From NCBI RefSeq assembly GCF_009914755.1, contig NC_060939.1: a stretch of 64,000 bases of DNA. One strand, written 5' to 3'. Source of the DNA: the human T2T-CHM13v2.0 reference genome, Homo sapiens. The notes under the pieces were generated by a model that ran no database searches, was not told where the DNA came from, and was given only the letters and a program-made list of their open reading frames with translations. Position numbers and translations under genes: made by a program. This document shows, in pieces, positions 32,443 to 57,201 of this stretch; the stretch's first letter is position 1; each line of letters opens with the position of its first letter.

Positions 32443-32760
32443 ATATATATACATATATAAATATATATTTATTTATTTATGTAAATGTATATATAAATAA
32501 ATATATAAATACATATAATACACATAAATATATATTATATATAAATATATACATAAATACATATATATAAATATATACATAAATAAATATATATAAATAT
32601 ATACATAATATATATTATATAAATATAATATACATAAATATATATTTATATATAATATACATAAATATATAATATATAATATATACAAATATACATTATA
32701 TATAAATATATATTATACACAAATATACATTATATATAAATATATATAAATATATATTTA
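32443..32760. repeat. AT-rich low-complexity (TA)n-like island
   Basis: About 320 bp, almost entirely A/T. Confidence 0.95.
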
Positions 32761-32930
32761 TGTGAAAATGAGTACAATTTCCCATAGATAGGTAAGGAAA
32801 GAAAAGATTTTTTATATATATATTTTTATATATATATATTTTTATATATGTTTATATATATAAAAATATATATATATATAAAATCTTTTCTTTCCTTACC
32901 TATCTATGGGAAATTGTACTCATTTTCACA
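32761..32930. repeat. Perfect 50-bp inverted repeat around a 70-bp AT spacer
   Basis: 32761-32810 is the exact reverse complement of 32881-32930. Confidence 0.98.
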
Positions 32931-33879
32931 CACAAAAATCCCTGCTTTTTTGAGGGTCATCATTTTAGTCATTTCCCATATCATAATAACGTTAGCAGTG
33001 TAGAGAAGGAAATCGCCAGAGTTTGAAGTGAAAAATAAAAGTAGAGTAAGGTTGCTCCTGGAATAGCTCTTTAATTGCATTTGTCACTATTGACGATCAA
33101 GACTCAAGACAGAGTATGTTGTACTTATGCGGTGTTTGACAGTTGCTAAAAATGGCAATGTCAGAGAGTCTTTGAGATCATCATTAATTCATTCATCCCC
33201 ACTTTTCAATCTGTTCTTCCCAGAGCATTACGGTCATATGAGCTGTGCTGAGAAATACAGGCTTCCAACATGAGTGCCTTTAGTTTCTTCAGGTCCTCTC
33301 TTCATCCAAAAAATTAGCTGGCTTTGAATTATGGAATTGTGGCCTTGGCAGGGTTGTTAGAGGTCACCTCATCTTACCTCCCAGTGGATGGAGAAATACC
33401 CGTTCCTTTTTCCTATCGTGACTTTCTGCCTCTGGTTATTGGGAAAAGTGGGGAGCAAAAGACAACAGGGACAGCATTGCCATGCATGCAATCCCATTCT
33501 GGTTTCAGACCGTTCAAACCATTTGAGCTCAAAGGATAACTCCTACCTATCAGCTCTAATTTTACTCTCCAGAACCACACAAAATTACTCTAATCCCTCT
33601 TGTGGCAGCTCTTTAAATATGTAACAGAGCCATCTTGGGCTTTCCTCTTCCCTGGTTTTTCTCATCATATTAAACCTTTGTACTGTTTTCTGCCCTGCCA
33701 CAGCAGTGTGTAAAGTTTCTTCTGTGTCTGGAATACTCTTCTGAAGAGCGGCTTCTGTTGGTCAGTGTCCAACCTGAAGTTGACCCAGAATAAGCAAGAA
33801 CCAGCTGTGGTGTGCTCAGTGGGGGACACATAAGTGCTTCGTTTCCGCATGCCAGGAGATAAAAATCAAGAAGTATTAA

Positions 33880-35684: not shown

Positions 35685-36419
35685 GTGCCATCTCCTCCAT
35701 ATGGCAGAATCTCTCATGGTTACCTCTAAACCCAACCTTCTTCTCTGCCTACAGCCTTGAGTTTTCCAACTGCCTTTTGGCAGCAAGCACTGCAGATGAT
35801 AAAAGAGACCCACAGATCAGCTAGGTATCTACAAGAAAATCAAGCGACTAAATATTGACAGAGATGGTGAATCCCATAGGAGACTGGGAGCAAGCAGGAG
35901 AAGCACCTTGTTGCATTAATTGGGGGCAGAGAGGGTATGAGCGAATGTGAAAAGCTAGGTGAGGATCTTCCATTCTCCCACAAATACCTTCCTTGACTTG
36001 TGTGCCTAGGGGAAAACCTTTAATGAGATGTTTTTCATTGCACTTACCACTCTGAGCTTGAAGAATGAACCTCACTAGAGATAAAGAGCAAATGTCTGCC
36101 TCTTAGAAGAGGGGTGGCCAAAGAAAAATATGTTCAGCTGAAACCGCATTCTCACACGAAGGCAACAAGATGAAAATCCTCTTCCTTCTCCCACCAAGAA
36201 ACGTTACCCAAGATTTTGTTCCTGATGCTCTTGCTACTCACAGTCCCTGTGGCTGTTTTGTTCCTTGGCTAGATAGGATATGATCCTCATCTTTTCCCAC
36301 TGAAGGCATCTGGAAAACCTATCAAGCTCATTTAAACCAAAACACTAAGGAATGAACAGCTGGTAGTTGTGATAAAATTTGACATTTGACCCTGAAAAAT
36401 CAATAGGAAAGAAATCAGA

Positions 36420-46900: not shown

Positions 46901-48129
46901 GCATATGCAGCATTTATGATTAGAAGGACATGAGATTGGCCCAATCAAATAGAGAGTGAGCAGGAAATAATTTAGATTGTGTAATCAAATCCACGTAATT
47001 ACACTTTTGAGCATATTTATTCGATTGCATACTGTGTATTACCATTTATATTTTACATGTATACATACGTGATATCACATAGTTTATATACATATAACCA
47101 GGTTCTATGTTTTATGGATGATTTGAAACATTTTCAAGGGTAATTTCGACTATAAATGAGTTTTGCCCTGAGTCGCAACCTTTAGAATTTTAAACCTGGT
47201 GGTAGAATGGTGAGGAGCCCAGCAAGCACTCAGCCAGTGATAGTTGGCACACGCTCAGTCTGTGTGTGAAGCAGCTTTCCCTTCCTGCTGTTTTCTGGAA
47301 CACCAGGAGGCTCCTTCTCTTAGCCCCATTTCTTTCCCTCTGTTTATATTTCTTACTGCCCCTCCCACTGCTGTCCAAGGGCTGACTGGTGTTTTGGAGC
47401 ACTGGACGCAAGATACCCCTGCAACAATAGAATTTTCTGGCAATGTTTGGCCAGACTAGGGTTCTGCTGGCCAGGGATTTTGCTGTGGTTTCTGTGATAC
47501 TGTGATGCAACCACCTGAAATTGCAGCCGCCACAAGTGCTGAAAGAAATTACACTGTTCTTAAGAGTGTCCATTAATAATTATGAAACTCTTTCGCCTTT
47601 TGGAAAGCAATTTAAAGAGATTAGTCCCAAGACACTGTTAATTCTGACCCTACTCTTCTCTTCCAAAAGCCTTTTCCCATAAAATGAATTCTGCCCAAGC
47701 CCAGGAGGACCAGATCTTGCGTGCCACTTCCAGGGGAGGCATCTGGCGTGCTTCCAGAGCCCTGTATCTGTATGTCATGATAAACCACAGTGCTGTCCCC
47801 TCATTGCTGCAAACACTCCATGGTACCTCATAGCGTAAAGCTTTGGTGAGCACCGCTTCTTTCCCAGAGTCCCTGACTTGATTCTGGCTACCCAGCCCTC
47901 CCCACTTCCAGCAAGTGCCCACTGAGGCCCAGTCCTGCAAGCACGTACCACGTGAGCAGCTCTGTGTCTCTGGAACCTGGAATCATGAAATCTGAGTCAC
48001 CGCCTTGTTTCCTTGAGCCCACCTGGACCCACCAAGTGATTTCCCTGTGCCGTGGATGCTGAGGGTTCTCAGTGGGTTCCCTGGGGCTGCTATTGTGTCA
48101 TAGCCCAGTGCATTGGATTCCTCTCTCTC

Positions 48130-48329
<200 letters not shown>

Positions 48330-48994
48330 TAAACCTGCAACTTCACTGAGTGAACTCTCTCTGAAAAGGATGAGAAGGTATAAGTCAAAGATGGGTATGA
48401 GCTTCCATGGACTGAGGAGTTCCTTTCTTTCATGTCTTCAGTTTTTCTCCTAACTTTCCTTCAGCTGGATTCCAAAGCAGCCCTGCTTTAGATTTTCCTT
48501 TTCCTGTAAGAATTTGCATTGGCTCATGGTCGGGAGGCCATGGTGAGGTGTTCCAAAACACCAGCTTCAGCTTTGAAAACACAGAGCAATTATTCTGTGC
48601 TGGATACTCTTTCATATTTTTAGTGATCCCCCAGCATCAGAATTCTCAGAACTTTTCTGGGGCCATTTTTGTCAGTTAACAAATCATTCTTTTTGTAGAA
48701 CACCAGTTTACTTGTTCAGTCCGGAACTGAGTGAGCAATAGGCGTCGGTGATGTGTGTTTAGTTATGTGGCTCTGTGTGCATGCGCAGAAGGAGAAGGCT
48801 CAGGGTTATGGCTGGTCTTTGATGGCTACCTAATTCGTCTTTGTTCAACACACTCTTTTCACTGTCCTTTGAAGTGTAGTAAGGCCCACCCTATACTGAC
48901 AGGGCCACAAGGAGGCAGGCTGCCTCTGACAGGAGGCCGTTCCTTTGGGAGAATCACTGAACCCCTCTCTGTTTATTTCAACATCATCTCCTAG

Positions 48995-51510: not shown

Positions 51511-51982
51511 GTAAGGAGCATCTGCCCTGAGGAATGGGGAAGCAGAAACACCCTGGACCATACAAAGCTCCCCTCCACACTCAGCATTCAGGTACAAGTG
51601 CCCTCATAAGACTGAGAAAACAAGGACCAAGGATCATCCCAGATCACCCCCACGTGCCATCTCGATGCCCTGTGATAGGAGACCTCTCCATTATTTCCCC
51701 TGCCAGTGTTTTGTGCATTCTTGCCATTAGCTCAAATGCCCTATTTAAGTCCACTACTGTTAGTTAAGCTGCTATTAGGGAATAAATGACTAAAAGCAAC
51801 TGGGAGAAAGAGGAAAACCTAAGACTTTCACAACTGAAATCATCTGCTCCTGGGTGCATTTTGCTAACTACAGTTGAGAAGCCAAAATTCTTCCAGAATG
51901 AAGAAGTCTGGGCTACAGGTGACTAGCTTCTGCCACCAGAAGATCAGCCTAATGTGCACCAACCGATGTGATCTCTTCTCAG

Positions 51983-52095
51983 GTGGAACAGCCTTTGAGG
52001 TCCAAGAAGGCCGTCTGGCACAAACTGTTATCAAAGCAACGGAAACGGGCAGTGGTGGCCTGTTTCAGGATGGCCCCTCTCTACAACCTGCCCAG
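51983..52095 (+). CDS. RYR3: RYR3 exon, 113 nt, calmodulin-binding segment: [37 protein letters not shown](R); ends at a GC donor
   Basis: atctcttctcag acceptor; CAG|gcaagt non-canonical donor, required for phase 2. Confidence 0.95.
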
Positions 52096-53132
52096 GCAAG
52101 TATTTTGTCTTTTTTCCTGGCATGTAAGCCAGCGATGGGAATGGAGGTATCCTCCCACAGCTGTGCTCTCTCACTCTTAATCCAAGGAATAGAAATTGGA
52201 ATCCTTGGCCTATGGAGCTATTGCAGTCTGCATAGTATAAGGGCCTGGCTAAGACAATCAAGGTAAGCATAAAAACTGAAACCAGATGAGATTCTCTAGA
52301 GCCCATTCCTGTCAGGCTCACCATTTGTACCCTAAAGTCAGCCAAGTAAGCATATGGAAGTACACTACTTTTGCTGAGGTGGGATTCTTGGTTAGCATGT
52401 AAAGACTTCTGGAAAAAGAGAAACTGTTTTCTGAAACATTTTACCCCAAATTCCATCAACAGTTCCAATAGTATTTCTCTGCTCAGGAACTTGACACTGA
52501 AATTACCATTTCCTCAGCAGGTACAGAAATGTAACTTGAAAATCTTTTAGCACAGTGTACTAGCTGTCAAAATATAGAAAGGCTGCAGATGCCTCAAGAG
52601 GCTTGCCAGAGGCACGATGCCTTCGGGTGTTTCAGCTTATACTTTGAAGTAAAATGTATTTGAAGCTTTTGCTGAAAAGTCTGGGACATATCCTTGTCAA
52701 CATAGGGAATAGTATCAGTGACAGACTGGCCCAGAGTTGACCACCCAGACCGATTCAGTGTCTTTGGTGATGTGGTGACATTCCTGTCCTCAGACTTATT
52801 GCAGAGTAGGTATGGTCAGGTCTTGGGTCAATAAACAAAGCTGGTAATTGAATATCAGCCTCTGCTTCACTGACTTATCAAATCAGTAGGAATATTCTCA
52901 CTTGCTCAGGGAAATTAAACTGACTTAGACAAGTATACTCTGAAGCTTATGTAAATAAATGTGTTTCTTTGGAATATCACATAAAGGACTATTCCTATGC
53001 TTGACATTTTGTTTTCATCAAATTGTGGATCTTGGCCATCATTTGTCCAGAGTAGCCTATAACCTCGTCCTGAGCCAACTGGCCACCTGGGCTTTCTTAG
53101 GGTCTTTGAAGATAGTTAAGAATGATGGTCTC

Positions 53133-53703
<571 letters not shown>

Positions 53704-54350
53704 TCATGAATGAAAAGATGAAAAGCTCAAGCAGTCATGGGCGTTAAGGCTGCTGAAGTCGTAACAGAAAAGTGAAATTCATAGCCCGTTAGAAAAAGCA
53801 AAAGTGCATAGAATTTGTCTTTGTTTTCTGGAAGTGTCGAAACATCAGAAAGTGTTTCCTTCCCTATCTGATTGAGATTTCTACCTGACATTGTGCTGAG
53901 TTGGCCTTCGAAAGAGCCTAGCTCGAAAGCACATGTCTCTGGGACCAGGACAGCTAGGCAGAAATTACATCTCTCAAAAACAAGCATTTTTTTCTAAATC
54001 CACTGAAGATATTAGTACCATCCTTACATATCTGGGCTGCACCTTCAGTAGTTTTACTCTGTATGGGTAAGAGTAAGTCTAGGAATTCACTATGTCCTTC
54101 ATGAAGCATGACCGTCCCTAACTCAGTTGTTTTAGAGGGGCTGCTATGGGTGATCTCTCTAGCATGGAGGACTGTAAGTAGATTTCATAACAACAGAGAA
54201 GCTGATGATGGAGACAACTTCTCTTCTCCACCTTGTGATCATCTAACCGCATAGAATCTCCCAAACTAAAGGGCTAAAGGGATTTGTTTTATTATGGGAA
54301 ACTGTCTCTGATGCTAGTTTTTAAAAGAAAACTTGTATGCTTCTCTCCAG

Positions 54351-54450
54351 ACACAAAATTAATAATTTCTTCCTGAGCACCTTTCAACAAGTTTGGCTGG
54401 AAAAGGTTAATGAAAAAACTCAGTATGACAGGCTTATACCCATTTTAATG
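54351..54450 (+). CDS. RYR3: Alternative (mutually exclusive) RYR3 exon 'A', 100 nt: (R)HKINNFFLSTFQQVWLEKVNEKTQYDRLIPILM
   Basis: ttctctccag acceptor; ATG|gtaatg donor; open in phase 2 to 0; peptide aligns with the 55379-55475 exon. Confidence 0.85.
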
Positions 54451-54536
54451 GTAATGTAACCTGTGGAGAGACCTGCTCATTCTCTGCACACTCCTCCTTT
54501 ATTGACCATGATTTAACGTTACCATAAGAACACGAA

Positions 54537-55286
54537 TTTGTACAATTTTTAGGAAGAATTCTGATTGGTCAGACTTGAAGAAAGATGGCAAGGGCTGTGT
54601 CCTACCGAAAACCATGACCGGAGTTTAATGGCTCTGGTGTTGACTTTTATCTTCCTCCCCTCTCCTTCCCTCCTCACCACTGTCCTCACATTTTGTAAAC
54701 ACTTGGCTGCTTTTGCTTTGCAGTGGCTAATATTCCCAGAAGTCAATCCTGGCTTATCGGGAGTGGCTCATGCCAGTTATTCAGTGCACCCACATACCAG
54801 GGACATAGCTAGAATCCATGCGGCACACAGAAAATATGCCAACGACGTAACGTGCTTAAACCTTGTCGTGCTAAGTAAAAGCTGGAGCACTTTACCACTG
54901 TGGTTACTTGGAGAATGAAAAGAAGCCACATTTTGGTATTTTGGTATCTCTAAGATGAAACCACTGATCATCGGTATGACTTAGATTGGATTACCTAGAA
55001 GGGTGATCAGCCTAAAGGAATACCTAAATTGCCATATGAAGCAAATACTTCAGGACTGTTACTTGGCCTAATGATTGATTTCTCATTGGAGAGGAAATGT
55101 GATAAAGAGCCTATGAGAACAGAGTAGGATTACAGATAACTGCCATGTCTTGCTAACCATTGTCATTTTCAGAAGGTGCTCTAATATTCAAGACTCGTCA
55201 TGGTAGAGGGTTCTGGTTTCTTTGAAGTGAGTTCTGTGGTATGCTACTGGCTACCCTGACCAATCAGAAGACAAGAATTGTACAAA
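54537..55286 (+). promoter_or_regulatory. Putative long-range pre-mRNA stem between the mutually exclusive exons
   Basis: 54559-54572 complements 55256-55269 (14/14); 54537-54547 complements 55276-55286 (11/11); nested 54611-54626 with 55191-55204. Confidence 0.65.
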
Positions 55287-55378
55287 AGTCTGTCCTGCTT
55301 ACTAACCATTAACTGCCCAAACTAAAAGAACAAGTTCCATGGATCCCTCTTGACCTCCCTCTCACCCCTTCCGCTCAG

Positions 55379-55475
55379 GCACCGCTCTATTAACCTCTTC
55401 CTCCATGGCTATCAGAGATTTTGGATAGAAACAGAGGAGTATTCCTTTGAAGAGAAACTAGTACAGGATTTGGCT
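55379..55475 (+). CDS. RYR3: RYR3 exon 'B', 97 nt (canonical type): (R)HRSINLFLHGYQRFWIETEEYSFEEKLVQDLA
   Basis: cccttccgctcag acceptor; GCT|gtaagt donor; phase 2 to 0. Confidence 0.96.
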
Positions 55476-57094
55476 GTAAGTACTGACTCCCCTGGGAGCA
55501 GATATGAGTGTGGATGAATTTGATTTTCGAATTCATGTGTGTGGTTGTAACAGTTAAACATTCACAAGGAATCGTGTGTATACATTTGAAAAGCACTAAC
55601 TGTGTAAGTGCTCAGGGGAGGCCCTGCTAATGGTCATAGGAGCCAGAGGATGAATTTTCACTTGGAGTTGCTAATACTGTCATCGTCCTCCTCATTGTCG
55701 CTGTTAACAACTAATATTTCTTAAAATGCACCGCCATGTCATGGGGGGTTCATGCTAAGTGAAGTTTTGAGCACCACTGGTTGCAGGAGGCCACCCCAGC
55801 CAAAGCCCCACGTTCCTACTCTGTAGTTCTGCTTTGGGGAAGATGCATCTAGATACCCTTCCTGCATCTTACATTTCTATATTTGGCCTTTCAGAAAATT
55901 TGGCATGCCTTGTCTCTAACAGACTTCATGCTCTAAAGCCACTTAAAATGACACAAGAGGGGAAAACTTACTGCAGAGGTGCCACAGAGCCTCATTCTGG
56001 TTCAGAGAGAAAATAAACCCTCCTTCTCTTTGGCCAGCCCTGTGGTTCTTTTTCTCCTTCTCCCACGAACCTTTTTCTCTTACCACTCACTCTCTCCGTT
56101 CATCTTGTCCTGTGTTTCTGATAGTCACTTTTTTCTAAATGTCTTTCACTTTCTATCTTTCCCTGTCACCCTCTGTTTCTTTCCTTCTTTTTTAAAGCCT
56201 TTTCCTATTGTTTTCTTTCCCTTTGTCTTTATGTCTTTCATTCTTCCCATATATTCCTGTTGGTGAGAAAGACACTCCGTTGGTTTTCTCAGTTTCTTGA
56301 TGAGTGTGAAGTTGACAATGAGCGTCACTTCAGCCCTCTACTTCTTCTGAACCATTCATACAACCCATGTAGTTCTCACCAATTTACCAAATACGGTCCA
56401 CCCTGCTGGCTCTGCCACTGCTAGAAAATTCACTTTTACCTCTGACATTAGCTGTTATTTCTCTTTCCATGAAAAGCGATAAAGAAAAGACCTGATAAAA
56501 GGAGAAGGGCAAGGCCTGCAGCTCCAGGATGGCAGCTCTCAGGAGCAACAAGAATTTTAGAATCAAGAGTTAGGTCAGGAAAGAGAGATGTTTTGCTGGG
56601 TTGAATCTAGAATAGTATTAGACCCAAAATGGCCCCACTGCTTTGTAACTCTTGCCCCACCTCCATGTCCAGCCCAGCCCTTCAAAAGAAATGTCAGCTG
56701 TTGGCCTGAGAGAGCAGTCTCTCAGGTGTCTCTGTGGGGTTTTCCTCCTGAACTCGGGTGCCCAGAGCTTGCATGAGAGGTCAGCTGATTGGAGTCTGTA
56801 GCTATTCCCTTTATGGGCAGCCTTTTGCTTTTTATTTTGTTTTAACCTGAAATTGGAATGTTTCTTTGGTTGGCTGTAAAAATAAAAAATATACAAACAT
56901 ATATACACATGTATCTCAAACCTCGCACCTTTAGGGCTTCTATCCTGAAATAAATACATGACGTAGTGGTTTTGTTTTGTGCTTTAGTCTGATGCACTCT
57001 GTGCCTTGCGCTTTACCTTCTCTTTGTTCGCATGCCAGTCACGTGGCACGAGATTAAATTCATGCCTAAAACCTATCTGTGTTGGTTTGTGTAG

Positions 57095-57201
57095 AAATCT
57101 CCAAAGGTGGAAGAGGAGGAGGAGGAAGAGACAGAAAAACAACCTGACCCACTACATCAGATCATTCTCTATTTTAGCCGCAACGCTCTCACGGAGAGGA
57201 G
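57095..57201 (+). CDS. RYR3: RYR3 exon, 107 nt: [35 protein letters not shown](S)
   Basis: ggtttgtgtag acceptor; AG|gtcaga donor. Confidence 0.95.

What the first reader, a model, noticed from the sequence alone, without database searches (positions are those of the whole stretch)
54537..55286. Nested long-range RNA duplex closing the intron between the two mutually exclusive exons
Seen: TTCTGATTGGTCAG (54559-72) is the exact reverse complement of CTGACCAATCAGAA (55256-69). Just outside it, TTTGTACAATT (54537-47) complements AATTGTACAAA (55276-86). That stem extends by TTT/AAG (one G-U) up to an 8x3 internal loop. Collinearly inside, ACCATGAC[CG]GAGTTT (54611-26) pairs with AGACTCGTCATGGT (55191-204). 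Weaker nested matches continue (ggctct, tttatc, ttcctc at 54630-57 versus 55088-111). The sequence is not Alu or L1. Folding would loop out about 680 nt of the 928-nt intron, leaving 86 nt to donor A and 92 nt to acceptor B. Established: RNA pairing controls mutually exclusive splicing in Dscam1, 14-3-3 and FGFR2. Inference: this is a structure-based switch for RYR3 exon choice, which I do not know to be described. It is my best candidate for a novel system here.
Basis: partly seen in the sequence, partly recalled or inferred. Interest (0 to 1): 0.85.

Follow-up and report, generated by a model that had tools for sequence, protein, structure and literature searches.

The report
Long-range RNA stem in RYR3 intron
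A real, single-copy inverted repeat in the intron between two alternative RYR3 exons is predicted to fold into a strong RNA stem that could hide the first exon's splice site, but whether it is conserved or acts in cells is untested.

Summary
The two outer stems are real: 14/14 and 11/11 complementary bases, plus three more pairs. No shuffle matched them (0 of 300; 0 of 1000). The duplex is predicted at -36.7 kcal/mol, with pair probability near 1 in 0.9, 2 and 3.65 kb contexts.

Their alignment is matched by 22 of 300 shuffles, and their pair probability is at most 0.08.

The repeat is single-copy in the human genome. The same search found thousands of copies of a neighbouring repeat. Perfect arms without a repeat family argue against a decaying transposon.

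No third copy of either arm exists, so this is not a Dscam-type docking/selector switch.

New here: in folding models the structure extends outward. The strand just after the 3' arm pairs with the 3' part of exon A. A local hairpin buries donor A only once the long-range stem exists: unpaired probability 0.03 against 0.35-0.43.

All of this is computed. Conservation could not be tested because no vertebrate genomes were available. A functional stem and a neutral relic remain about equally likely.

The parts
54351..54450 (+). Alternative exon A (100 nt). Its donor is weak: ATG|GTAATG.
   Evidence: Hub annotation lists it under exons of other transcripts. Translation. Homologous to exon B over 17 residues, E = 5e-5. 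No second copy in the genome.
55379..55475 (+). Exon B (97 nt), the exon in the selected transcript. Its donor is GCT|GTAAGT.
   Evidence: Hub annotation and translation. Read in the phase left by exon A it gives APLY-stop. RYR2 and RYR1 carry B-type exons only.
54537..54550 (+). 5' strand of the outer helix: 11 perfect pairs plus 3, one of them G-U. It contains the palindrome TTGTACAA.
   Evidence: Pair probability 0.70-1.00.
54559..54572 (+). 5' strand of the inner 14-bp helix.
   Evidence: Pair probability 0.97-1.00.
54573..55255 (+). 683-nt loop closed by the stem. It holds splice-site-like strings: a pyrimidine tract ending in CAG at about 54648-54723, and GAA|GTGAGT at 55224-55232.
Evidence: Read. 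CpG observed/expected is 0.31, and 23% of window tiles are as high. No Rfam match.
55256..55269 (+). 3' strand of the inner 14-bp helix. It contains a CCAAT-box-like string, CCAATCAG.
   Evidence: The 14-mer occurs 155 times in the genome against 13 for the reversed control, and 0 of 20 sampled copies share flanks with these arms.
55273..55286 (+). 3' strand of the outer helix. In the model, this is the helix on which the donor-A hairpin depends.
   Evidence: Blocking only this strand drops the hairpin probability from 0.96 to 0.16. Blocking only the 14-mer leaves it at 0.93.
54443..54457 (+). Donor A (positions -8 to +7), the 5' strand of the local hairpin H1.
   Evidence: the repeat finder pair I5. 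Ten consecutive pairs join 54448-54457 to 54516-54525.
54516..54530 (+). 3' strand of hairpin H1, complementary to donor A and 6 nt before the outer helix.
   Evidence: The isolated hairpin folds at -19.8 kcal/mol, z = -2.51, with 4 of 200 shuffles as stable. In the duplex test 21 of 1000 shuffles reach it. H1 probability is 0.96 with the long-range stem and 0.01-0.19 without it.
54405..54435 (+). 3' part of exon A, which pairs with the strand that follows the 3' arm.
   Evidence: The helices are 54427-35 x 55286-94 (probability 0.95), 54422-25 x 55296-99 (0.92) and 54405-12 x 55307-14 (0.58). The same helices appear in the 3.65-kb minimum-energy fold. Duplex -24.2 kcal/mol, with 4 of 1000 and 0 of 1000 shuffles as stable. 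It is the best of 320 windows, z = -4.42.
55286..55314 (+). 'Tail' strand immediately after the 3' arm, partner of exon A's 3' part. TACTAAC (55300-55306) followed by TAAC sits unpaired in a 9x7 internal loop.
   Evidence: TACTAAC occurs once in 52096-57094.
52040..52075 (+). 3' end of the upstream constitutive exon, the second-best predicted partner of the same tail strand.
   Evidence: Duplex -30.6 kcal/mol, with 2 of 1000 shuffles as stable. Second of 320 windows, z = -3.89. It is not used in the 3.65-kb minimum-energy fold, where it forms a local hairpin.

Best explanation
This is a genuine, single-copy, interrupted inverted repeat of about 36 and 31 nt. In the pre-mRNA it is predicted to form a very stable panhandle, 54538-54572 paired with 55256-55285, that closes 683 nt of the A-B intron.

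The panhandle is one arm of a larger three-way junction in the models. The strand immediately after the 3' arm (55286-55314) pairs with the 3' part of exon A. A local hairpin (54443-57 with 54516-30) buries the weak donor of exon A.

The partner strands lie only 65-123 nt upstream of acceptor B. The junction can therefore form only when exon B is about to appear.

Inferred mechanism: once formed, the junction masks donor A and the end of exon A. Exon A is then skipped, A cannot be joined to B, and exon B is used by default. Exon A would be included only if it is recognised in the roughly 0.85 kb transcription window before the 3' strand is made, or if a factor keeps that strand open.

Shown here: the repeat, its rarity, and the thermodynamic predictions. 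Inferred: that the structure forms in cells, that it affects splicing, and that selection maintains it.
For: - **Non-chance repeat.** 0 of 300 and 0 of 1000 shuffles match it. It is the only inverted repeat in 544 tiles at this score that is neither Alu nor AT-rich.
- **Stable in all contexts.** The duplex is -36.7 kcal/mol with probability near 1 in the 928-nt and 2-kb folds, and the pairs are present in the 3.65-kb minimum-energy fold. Forbidding the 3' arm costs 21.2 kcal/mol of ensemble energy.
- **No repeat family.** Searches return only the locus itself, and the combined motif returns only the two arms. The same tool gave 7311 and 4044 first-look candidates for neighbouring repeats. Fifty unchanged arm positions without a family do not fit a decaying transposon (inference).
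- **Coupling to donor A.** Donor A unpaired probability is 0.03 with the stem. It is 0.31-0.43 when either whole arm or the outer helix alone is blocked. This holds in three contexts and six parameter settings, although two settings gave numbers identical to default and may not have taken effect.
- **Timing.** In growing transcripts the hairpin probability is 0.06 or less (0.28 at one length) until the 3' end passes 55300. It is then 0.96.
- **Exon A pairing.** Complementarity between exon A and the tail is matched by 4 of 1000 and 0 of 1000 shuffles. It is the best of 320 windows across 51900-57150.
- **Location.** The repeat lies in the intron between two homologous exons whose joint inclusion gives a premature stop.
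Against: - No cross-species sequence could be obtained, so neither conservation nor covariation is known. Three collection scans for orthologous sequence gave 0 hits.
- The 25 pairs of the two core blocks are all Watson-Crick with no wobble. The only G-U lies in the three-pair extension. This looks like a fairly recent DNA-level duplication rather than long selection on RNA pairing (inference).
- The outer block can also be read as a direct repeat: TTGTACAA 8 of 8, and ACA[C/A]GAATT 8 of 9. That is how an insertion footprint would look.
- The exon A to tail energy of -24.2 is ordinary in absolute terms. 367 of 2939 real genomic pairs at the same spacing are as stable, as are 2 of 20 other exon-tail pairs.
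- The outermost predicted helix is not significant: 235 of 1000 shuffles reach it.
- The hairpin and the exon A pairing were found after looking at the fold, so their p-values are post hoc.
- The intron as a whole folds no better than shuffles.
- RYR1 and RYR2 have nothing comparable.
- Equilibrium folding ignores proteins, kinetics and helicases.
- The model explains skipping of exon A. It does not explain how exon B is skipped when A is used.
Confidence: 0.4

Rival explanations
1. Neutral relic. A local inverted duplication, for example a replication template switch, or the footprint of a one-off insertion created the repeat fairly recently in the primate lineage. The stem may or may not form. 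It has no effect on exon choice, and the extra helices are what any folding program builds around a strong anchor helix.
For: - The arms are perfect Watson-Crick with no wobble in 25 pairs, and all differences are confined to one spacer. A single complex mutation after a recent duplication would explain this.
- A direct-repeat reading of the outer block is available.
- Absolute energies of the added helices are ordinary for genomic sequence: 367 of 2939 pairs are as stable.
- The whole-intron z-score is -0.58.
- There is no paralogue support.
- No paper links RYR3 introns to RNA structure.
Against: - An inverted copy placed 700 nt away, in two blocks, is not a common mutational outcome (recalled knowledge, not tested here).
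- The repeat sits in the 928-nt intron between the alternative exons, which is 1.5% of the window.
- The tail's best partner among 320 windows is the exon A segment collinear with the stem.
- The hairpin over donor A is stronger than 979 of 1000 shuffles.
Confidence: 0.4
2. Terminal inverted repeats of an ancient, low-copy DNA transposon about 750 bp long. They are either decaying neutrally or were later co-opted.
For: - The architecture is inverted ends around about 700 bp of unrelated sequence.
- A possible 8-bp flanking duplication, TTGTACAA, is present 8 of 8.
- Genome searches here would miss families below roughly 75-80% identity or with few copies. The weakest full-length hits in the positive control were 79% identical.
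Against: - The genome search gave one first-look candidate, the locus itself.
- A pattern needing only 18 fixed bases of the two blocks finds just the two arms, with 0 in the control.
- The 31-nt arm at up to 3 mismatches finds only itself.
- 0 of 20 sampled genomic copies of the 14-mer share flanks with the arms.
- Fifty unchanged arm positions imply little decay. A family that young should be abundant and easy to find (inference).
- With TTGTACAA as the target duplication, the two ends are unequal, 13 against 8 nt before the 14-mer, and do not start with a known superfamily terminus (recalled).
Confidence: 0.12
3. A DNA-level element rather than an RNA one. Two inverted CCAAT-box (NF-Y-type) sites, each with a TTGTACAA palindrome, would mark an intronic enhancer or promoter.
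For: - CTGACCAATCAGAA matches the CCAAT-box consensus as I recall it.
- The 14-mer occurs 155 times in the genome against 13 for the reversed control. This suggests the motif is favoured on its own account.
Against: - Factor-binding sites do not need 14 plus 11 bases of exact mutual complementarity or collinear order.
- RefSeq lists no functional element here. The only enhancer in the window is at 36236-36405 (hub annotation).
- Nothing was tested at the DNA level.
Confidence: 0.05

Closest known systems
ATE1 exons 7a/7b, competing intronic elements R1-R5 (PMC7797038; passages read)
   Same: A human pair of mutually exclusive, duplicated exons. Conserved long-range intronic pairings, tested by disruptive and compensatory mutations, set the ratio.
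   Different: In ATE1, R1 and R4 compete for R3. Here neither arm has a second partner. ATE1 elements are conserved and experimentally tested. Here nothing is tested, and the pairing involves exon A and its donor.
SCN alpha-subunit exons 5a/5b, ISRE1-ISRE2 stem (PMC12772994; abstract and section 7 read)
   Same: An ion-channel gene with duplicated mutually exclusive exons. Two complementary elements lie within one intron, near the regulated exon.
   Different: The SCN stem is -17 to -23.6 kcal/mol and lies downstream of exon 5b. It is shared by paralogues, conserved to shark, and works with Rbfox sites. Here the stem is -36.7 kcal/mol and lies between the exons. It has no paralogue counterpart, and the intron has no GCATG.
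Dscam1 and 14-3-3 docking site with selector sequences (recalled; reviewed in papers listed)
   Same: RNA pairing near alternative exons of a mutually exclusive cluster.
   Different: The defining one-docking, many-selector competition is absent for the arms. The tail strand has two candidate partners, exon A and the upstream exon. Both would favour exon B, so they do not make a switch.
Pairs of conserved complementary regions in human introns (PMC8052449; passages and section 10 read)
   Same: A stable pairing wholly inside one intron, the preferred placement in that catalogue. Its energy falls in the most stable class.
   Different: Membership requires both arms to lie in conserved, non-repeat blocks, which could not be checked. 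RYR3 is not named in the main text or in the 3 held supplement files.
[quoted passage not shown]
   Same: A stem that shortens the path from donor to a TACTAAC box, here from about 850 nt to about 100 nt.
   Different: The yeast definition allows 42-85 nt of total linker and at least 20 nt to the branch point. Here the linkers are 86 nt plus about 14-19 nt. Zipper stems help remove the intron, which here would give the non-productive A+B product.
Splice-donor hairpins such as the one at MAPT exon 10 (recalled, no call)
   Same: A local stem over a weak donor lowers use of the exon.
   Different: Here the donor hairpin is predicted to form only when a helix 700 nt away is in place.

Membership tests
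Docking-site/selector competing RNA structures (Dscam1 type) | One docking sequence is complementary to two or more selector sequences, one per alternative exon | tested here: not met
   At up to 3 mismatches the 14-mer gives 7 matches against 10.2 expected, and only the two arms are exact. At up to 1 mismatch the 11-mer gives 4 matches against 2.4 expected.
Docking-site/selector competing RNA structures (Dscam1 type) | The alternative pairings are mutually exclusive and each activates a different exon | tested here: inconclusive
   The tail 55287-55340 has two strong candidate partners, exon A's 3' part and the upstream exon's 3' end. Both arrangements would favour exon B (inference).
Pairs of conserved complementary regions (Kalmykova et al. 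2021) | A stable complementary pair within one gene, with free energy at or below about -15 kcal/mol | tested here: met
   -36.7 kcal/mol, with the arms 683 nt apart in one intron.
Pairs of conserved complementary regions (Kalmykova et al. 2021) | Both arms lie in evolutionarily conserved, non-repeat intronic blocks | not testable with these tools
   No vertebrate genomes or conservation tracks are held. Scans of other collections gave 0 hits.
DNA transposon with terminal inverted repeats | Inverted repeats at the two ends of the element | tested here: met
   14 of 14 and 11 of 11 inverted blocks around 683 nt.
DNA transposon with terminal inverted repeats | A target-site duplication of superfamily-typical length directly flanks the repeats | tested here: inconclusive
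   TTGTACAA is present 8 of 8 on both sides. It is a palindrome, also part of the inverted reading, and it leaves unequal ends.
DNA transposon with terminal inverted repeats | Related copies exist elsewhere in the genome | tested here: not met
   Searches return only the locus itself or the two arms. Positive controls gave 7311 and 4044 candidates. Sensitivity is limited to about 75-80% identity or more.
Zipper stem (5' splice site to branch point) | [quoted passage not shown] | tested here: not met
   86 nt from donor A to the stem, and about 14-19 nt from the stem to TACTAAC. The total is about 100-105 nt.
RNA bridge bringing a protein site to an exon | A known splicing-factor motif lies next to one arm, and the exon responds to that factor | tested here: inconclusive
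   There is no GCATG in the A-B intron. TACTAAC-N3-TAAC lies 14 nt after the 3' arm, and I recall it as resembling a Quaking site. No paper links RYR3 and Quaking.
Rfam RNA families | A match to any curated covariance model | tested here: not met
   0 matches at E up to 1 in 54200-55600.

The most novel reading that the evidence does not exclude
A co-transcriptional clamp enforces mutual exclusion. A roughly 60-80 nt strand just upstream of exon B's branch region (55256-55314) zips onto the 5' arm and onto exon A's 3' half. This builds a three-way junction that locks a hairpin over the weak donor A at the moment acceptor B emerges. A can then never be joined to B, and B is the default.

The TACTAAC-TAAC motif, displayed single-stranded in the internal loop, would be the handle by which a tissue factor opens the clamp. 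Candidates are a Quaking- or SF1-type protein. Binding there would also repress exon B, switching the channel to the exon A form.
Probability: 0.18. Interest if true: 0.7.

Novelty: new member of a known kind. Interest (0 to 1): 0.45.

Why it matters
RYR3 is a calcium-release channel of brain and muscle. The two alternative exons encode different versions of one segment of the channel.

The paper searches and term searches run here returned no paper describing how the choice is made. Not every returned listing was read, and most supplements could not be seen.

If the stem is conserved and active, it would add a human example to the short list of mutually exclusive exon pairs controlled by RNA structure. 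It would also have an unusual feature: a distant helix that turns on a local hairpin over a splice donor. That is directly testable with blocking oligonucleotides.

If the arms prove to be primate-specific or neutral, the finding is an ordinary inverted repeat.

Tried and rejected
**Repeat family**
- Whole-region, arm and motif searches of the genome found only the locus itself.
- The 14-mer alone is over-represented, 155 copies against 13 for the control. I fetched 20 of the first 28 listed copies, leaving out 8 clustered on contig 1 between 142.7 and 161.0 Mb. By eye, 0 of these 20 share flanks with the arms.

**Repeat masking**
- window.fa carries no soft-masking.

**Known RNA families and open reading frames**
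- Rfam gave 0 matches.
- The longest stop-to-stop frame in the intron is 117 codons. I estimated, without a computation, that this is not beyond chance, and I did not search it.

**Orthologues from other collections**
- Three scans gave 0 hits.

**Paralogues**
- RYR2 and RYR1 have the B-type exon at 66% and 48% identity. Neither has an A-type exon within 1.5 kb. Intron similarity is no better than E = 0.058, and neither has a comparable inverted repeat.

**Other tests**
- Rbfox-type bridge: no GCATG in the intron.
- CpG retention as a proxy for constraint: the loop is at 0.31, and 23% of tiles are as high, so it is uninformative.
- Exon A to exon B 13-nt complementarity: pair probability 0.
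- Comparison inverted repeat at 47386/48548: 16 of 17 pairs and single-copy arms. I estimated about 0.3 such repeats by chance per window, without a computation.

**Technical failures**
- A window-wide duplex scan timed out and was replaced by seed-based and tile scans.
- The supplement look-up closed. The supplements of PMC10691357 and the full PCCR catalogue, which may list this pair, were therefore not seen.

**Literature**
- No occurrence of the arm sequences in the paper library.
Full report
**1. The observation**

- Positions 54559-54572 and 55256-55269 are perfect reverse complements, 14 of 14.
- Positions 54537-54547 and 55276-55286 are perfect, 11 of 11. Three further pairs, one of them G-U, lead to an 8x3 internal loop.
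- The stem leaves 86 nt to donor A and 92 nt to acceptor B, and closes a 683-nt loop.

The core is not chance.
- A local inverted alignment of the two intron halves scores 34. Dinucleotide shuffles give 19.7 +/- 2.1, and 0 of 300 reach 34.
- The duplex is -36.7 kcal/mol against -14.4 +/- 3.3 for shuffles, with 0 of 1000 as stable.
- Among 544 tiles of 928 nt across the window, 14 score 34 or more. They collapse to four loci: an AT-rich palindrome near 32.8 kb, two Alu pairs, and this one.

- The alignment of the inner parts is reached by 22 of 300 shuffles.
- The third stem and the three short matches have pair probabilities of 0.00-0.08.
- The intron as a whole folds no better than shuffles: z = -0.58, with 5 of 20 as stable.

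**2. Does the stem form in the model?**

The 14-bp helix has probability 0.97-1.00 and the outer helix 0.70-1.00 in the 928-nt intron. The same holds in a 2-kb context. The pairs are present in the minimum-energy fold of 3.65 kb, which includes the upstream exon. Forbidding the 14-mer costs 11.6 kcal/mol of ensemble energy. Forbidding the whole 3' arm costs 21.2 kcal/mol.

**3. What the DNA is**

The region is single-copy at the sensitivity available.
- The 821-nt region and the 181-nt left arm each gave one first-look candidate, themselves.
- Patterns joining the two blocks found only the two arms, with 0 in the reversed controls.
- The 31-nt right arm at up to 3 mismatches found only itself.
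- As positive controls, the masked repeat at 53131-53612 gave 7311 candidates with full-length hits of 79-85% identity. An Alu-like piece at about 48.1-48.3 kb gave 4044.

The 14-mer alone is frequent: 68 + 87 copies against 7 + 6 for the reversed control. However, 0 of 20 sampled copies share flanks with the arms. I took 20 of the first 28 listed copies and dropped 8 clustered on contig 1. The string contains CCAATCAG, which I recall as the CCAAT-box core.

There is no Rfam match.

The age argument is my inference. Fifty arm positions are unchanged, so either little time has passed or selection is acting. A transposon family young enough to fit the first case should be abundant and easy to find, and none is found. 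A neutrally decaying transposon is therefore disfavoured. An old low-copy family, possibly co-opted, is not excluded.

A complication is that the outer block contains the palindrome TTGTACAA. It can therefore also be read as a direct repeat: 8 of 8, extended by ACA[C/A]GAATT at 8 of 9. That is how an insertion footprint would look. All 25 pairs of the two core blocks are Watson-Crick, which also points to a DNA-level duplication.

**4. The setting**

Exon A (54351-54450) and exon B (55379-55475) encode homologous peptides, with 7 of 17 identities and E = 5e-5. Exon A ends on a codon boundary, and exon B read from its first base gives APLY-stop. Joint inclusion is therefore non-productive.

RYR3 is listed among genes with tandem duplicated exon substitution events (PMC9741552, passages and one supplement passage). 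Exon A has no second copy in the genome. RYR2 and RYR1 have only the B type, and their introns show nothing similar.

Read, donor A is weak (ATG|GTAATG) and donor B strong (GCT|GTAAGT).

**5. Why it is not a Dscam-type switch**

Neither arm has a third copy in the window. On its own, looping out the A-B intron would bring donor A to acceptor B and favour the non-productive product. Yeast zipper stems do just this (PMC12350175, passages). Those criteria, 42-85 nt of linker and at least 20 nt to the branch point, are not met here. The linkers are 86 nt plus about 14-19 nt to TACTAAC.

**6. What the folds add**

In folds that include exon A, the structure extends outward.
- The strand right after the 3' arm pairs with exon A's 3' part. 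The helices are 54427-35 with 55286-94 (9 bp, probability 0.95), 54422-25 with 55296-99 (0.92), and 54405-12 with 55307-14 (0.58).
- TACTAAC (55300-06) is left unpaired in a 9x7 internal loop.
- Between this helix and the panhandle sits a hairpin, 54443-57 with 54516-30. Its ten consecutive pairs cover donor A from -3 to +7.

The hairpin depends on the long-range stem.
- Donor A's mean unpaired probability is 0.03 with the stem.
- It is 0.35-0.39 with the 3' arm blocked, in three contexts.
- It is 0.43 with the 5' arm blocked, and 0.36 with only the outer helix's 3' strand blocked.
- It stays at 0.04 when only the 14-mer is blocked.
- Across six parameter settings the hairpin probability is 0.96-0.97 with the stem and 0.01-0.19 without it. 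Two of the six settings returned numbers identical to default and may not have taken effect.
- In growing transcripts the hairpin probability is 0.06 or less (0.28 at one length) until the 3' end passes 55300, and then 0.96.

The statistics for the added helices are moderate.
- Exon A's 3' part against the tail gives -24.2 kcal/mol, with 4 of 1000 and 0 of 1000 dinucleotide shuffles as stable.
- It is the best of 320 windows across 51900-57150, z = -4.42.
- The second best is the 3' end of the upstream constitutive exon: z = -3.89, -30.6 kcal/mol, 2 of 1000.
- The hairpin alone has z = -2.51, with 4 of 200 shuffles as stable, and 21 of 1000 in the duplex test.

Results against this extension are as follows.
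- Compared with real genomic pairs at the same spacing, 367 of 2939 are as stable as -24.2.
- For the whole exon against the whole tail, 627 of 1465 are as stable.
- 2 of 20 other exon-tail pairs are as stable.
- The outermost helix is not significant, at 235 of 1000.
- These helices were found by looking at the fold, so the tests are post hoc.

**7. Mechanism proposed**

This is inferred. The partner strand lies 65-123 nt before acceptor B, so the junction can form only as exon B is about to emerge. It then masks the weak donor A and the end of exon A. Exon A is skipped, A cannot be joined to B, and exon B is the default.

Exon A would need to be recognised in the roughly 0.85 kb window before that strand is transcribed, or the strand would need to be kept open by a factor. 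The model does not explain how exon B is skipped when A is used. The TACTAAC-N3-TAAC motif is a candidate handle. I recall it as Quaking-like and branch-point-like, and it occurs once in 5 kb. No paper links RYR3 and Quaking.

**8. Comparison with what is known**

Known human cases are ATE1, with competing conserved elements and compensatory mutagenesis (PMC7797038, passages). Another is the SCN genes, where two complementary elements in one intron are conserved to shark (PMC12772994, abstract and section 7).

Intronic pairs of conserved complementary regions are catalogued genome-wide and prefer to lie inside introns (PMC8052449, passages and section 10).

RYR3 does not occur in the following:
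- the main text or the three held supplement files of PMC8052449;
- the main text of PMC5740500;
- PMC6071210;
- PMC8373072.

A search for RYR3 with intron, RNA structure and splicing gave 3 papers, none on this topic by title. For PMC10691357 I saw only the abstract and outline. Its supplements and the full catalogue could not be seen because the supplement look-up closed, and they may list this pair.

**9. Verdict**

The inverted repeat is real and rare, and it should fold. Its origin looks duplicative. Whether it is young and neutral or kept by selection cannot be decided without other species' sequence.

I put a functional structure that biases splicing toward exon B at about 0.4. A neutral relic is also about 0.4, an old transposon end about 0.1, and a DNA-level element about 0.05.

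If functional, it is a new member of a known kind, with an interesting twist: a distant helix that switches on a donor hairpin.

Noticed in passing
window 32752-32939: A near-perfect long palindrome. The arms are 87 nt, 92% complementary and 14 nt apart, lie partly in non-simple sequence, and sit beside an AT-rich tract. It is the strongest inverted repeat in the window.
   Followed up: no
window 47386-47402 and 48548-48564: A 17-nt inverted repeat, 16 of 17 complementary, with arms 1145 nt apart in the neighbouring intron. The arms are single-copy. I estimated about 0.3 such repeats by chance per window, without a computation.
   Followed up: partly
window 52040-52075 with 55287-55340: The 3' end of the upstream constitutive exon is strongly complementary to the same strand that pairs with exon A: -30.6 kcal/mol, with 2 of 1000 shuffles as stable. 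This pairing would loop out exon A entirely. It is not used in the 3.65-kb minimum-energy fold.
   Followed up: partly
window 55300-55313: TACTAAC followed three bases later by TAAC, 14 nt after the 3' arm and 73 nt before acceptor B. This is a perfect yeast-type branch box. I recall the pattern as a Quaking-type bipartite site. TACTAAC occurs once in 52096-57094.
   Followed up: partly
window 54648-54723 and 55224-55232: Inside the loop there is a long pyrimidine tract ending in TTTGCAG, and a donor-like GAA|GTGAGT. Together they could define a pseudo-exon that the stem would loop out. No transcript with it is annotated (hub table).
   Followed up: no
window 54399-54411 and 55389-55401: Exon A and exon B share a 13-nt stretch that is 92% complementary. 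It has pair probability 0 in the ensemble.
   Followed up: yes
genome-wide; loci L005-L024: The 14-mer TTCTGATTGGTCAG occurs 155 times against 13 for its reversed control. Among 20 sampled copies, some share flanks with each other, for example L019 with L022. This suggests that other repeat families carry this CCAAT-like string.
   Followed up: partly
window 53131-53612: A mid-age interspersed repeat of about 470 bp. It gave 7311 first-look candidates, with full-length copies at 79-85% identity. The family was not named.
   Followed up: no
L028 1287-1298 and 1774-1785: In RYR2, a 12-nt perfect inverted repeat flanks the exon homologous to exon B. I estimated about 0.3 such repeats by chance in 3 kb, without a computation.
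   Followed up: no
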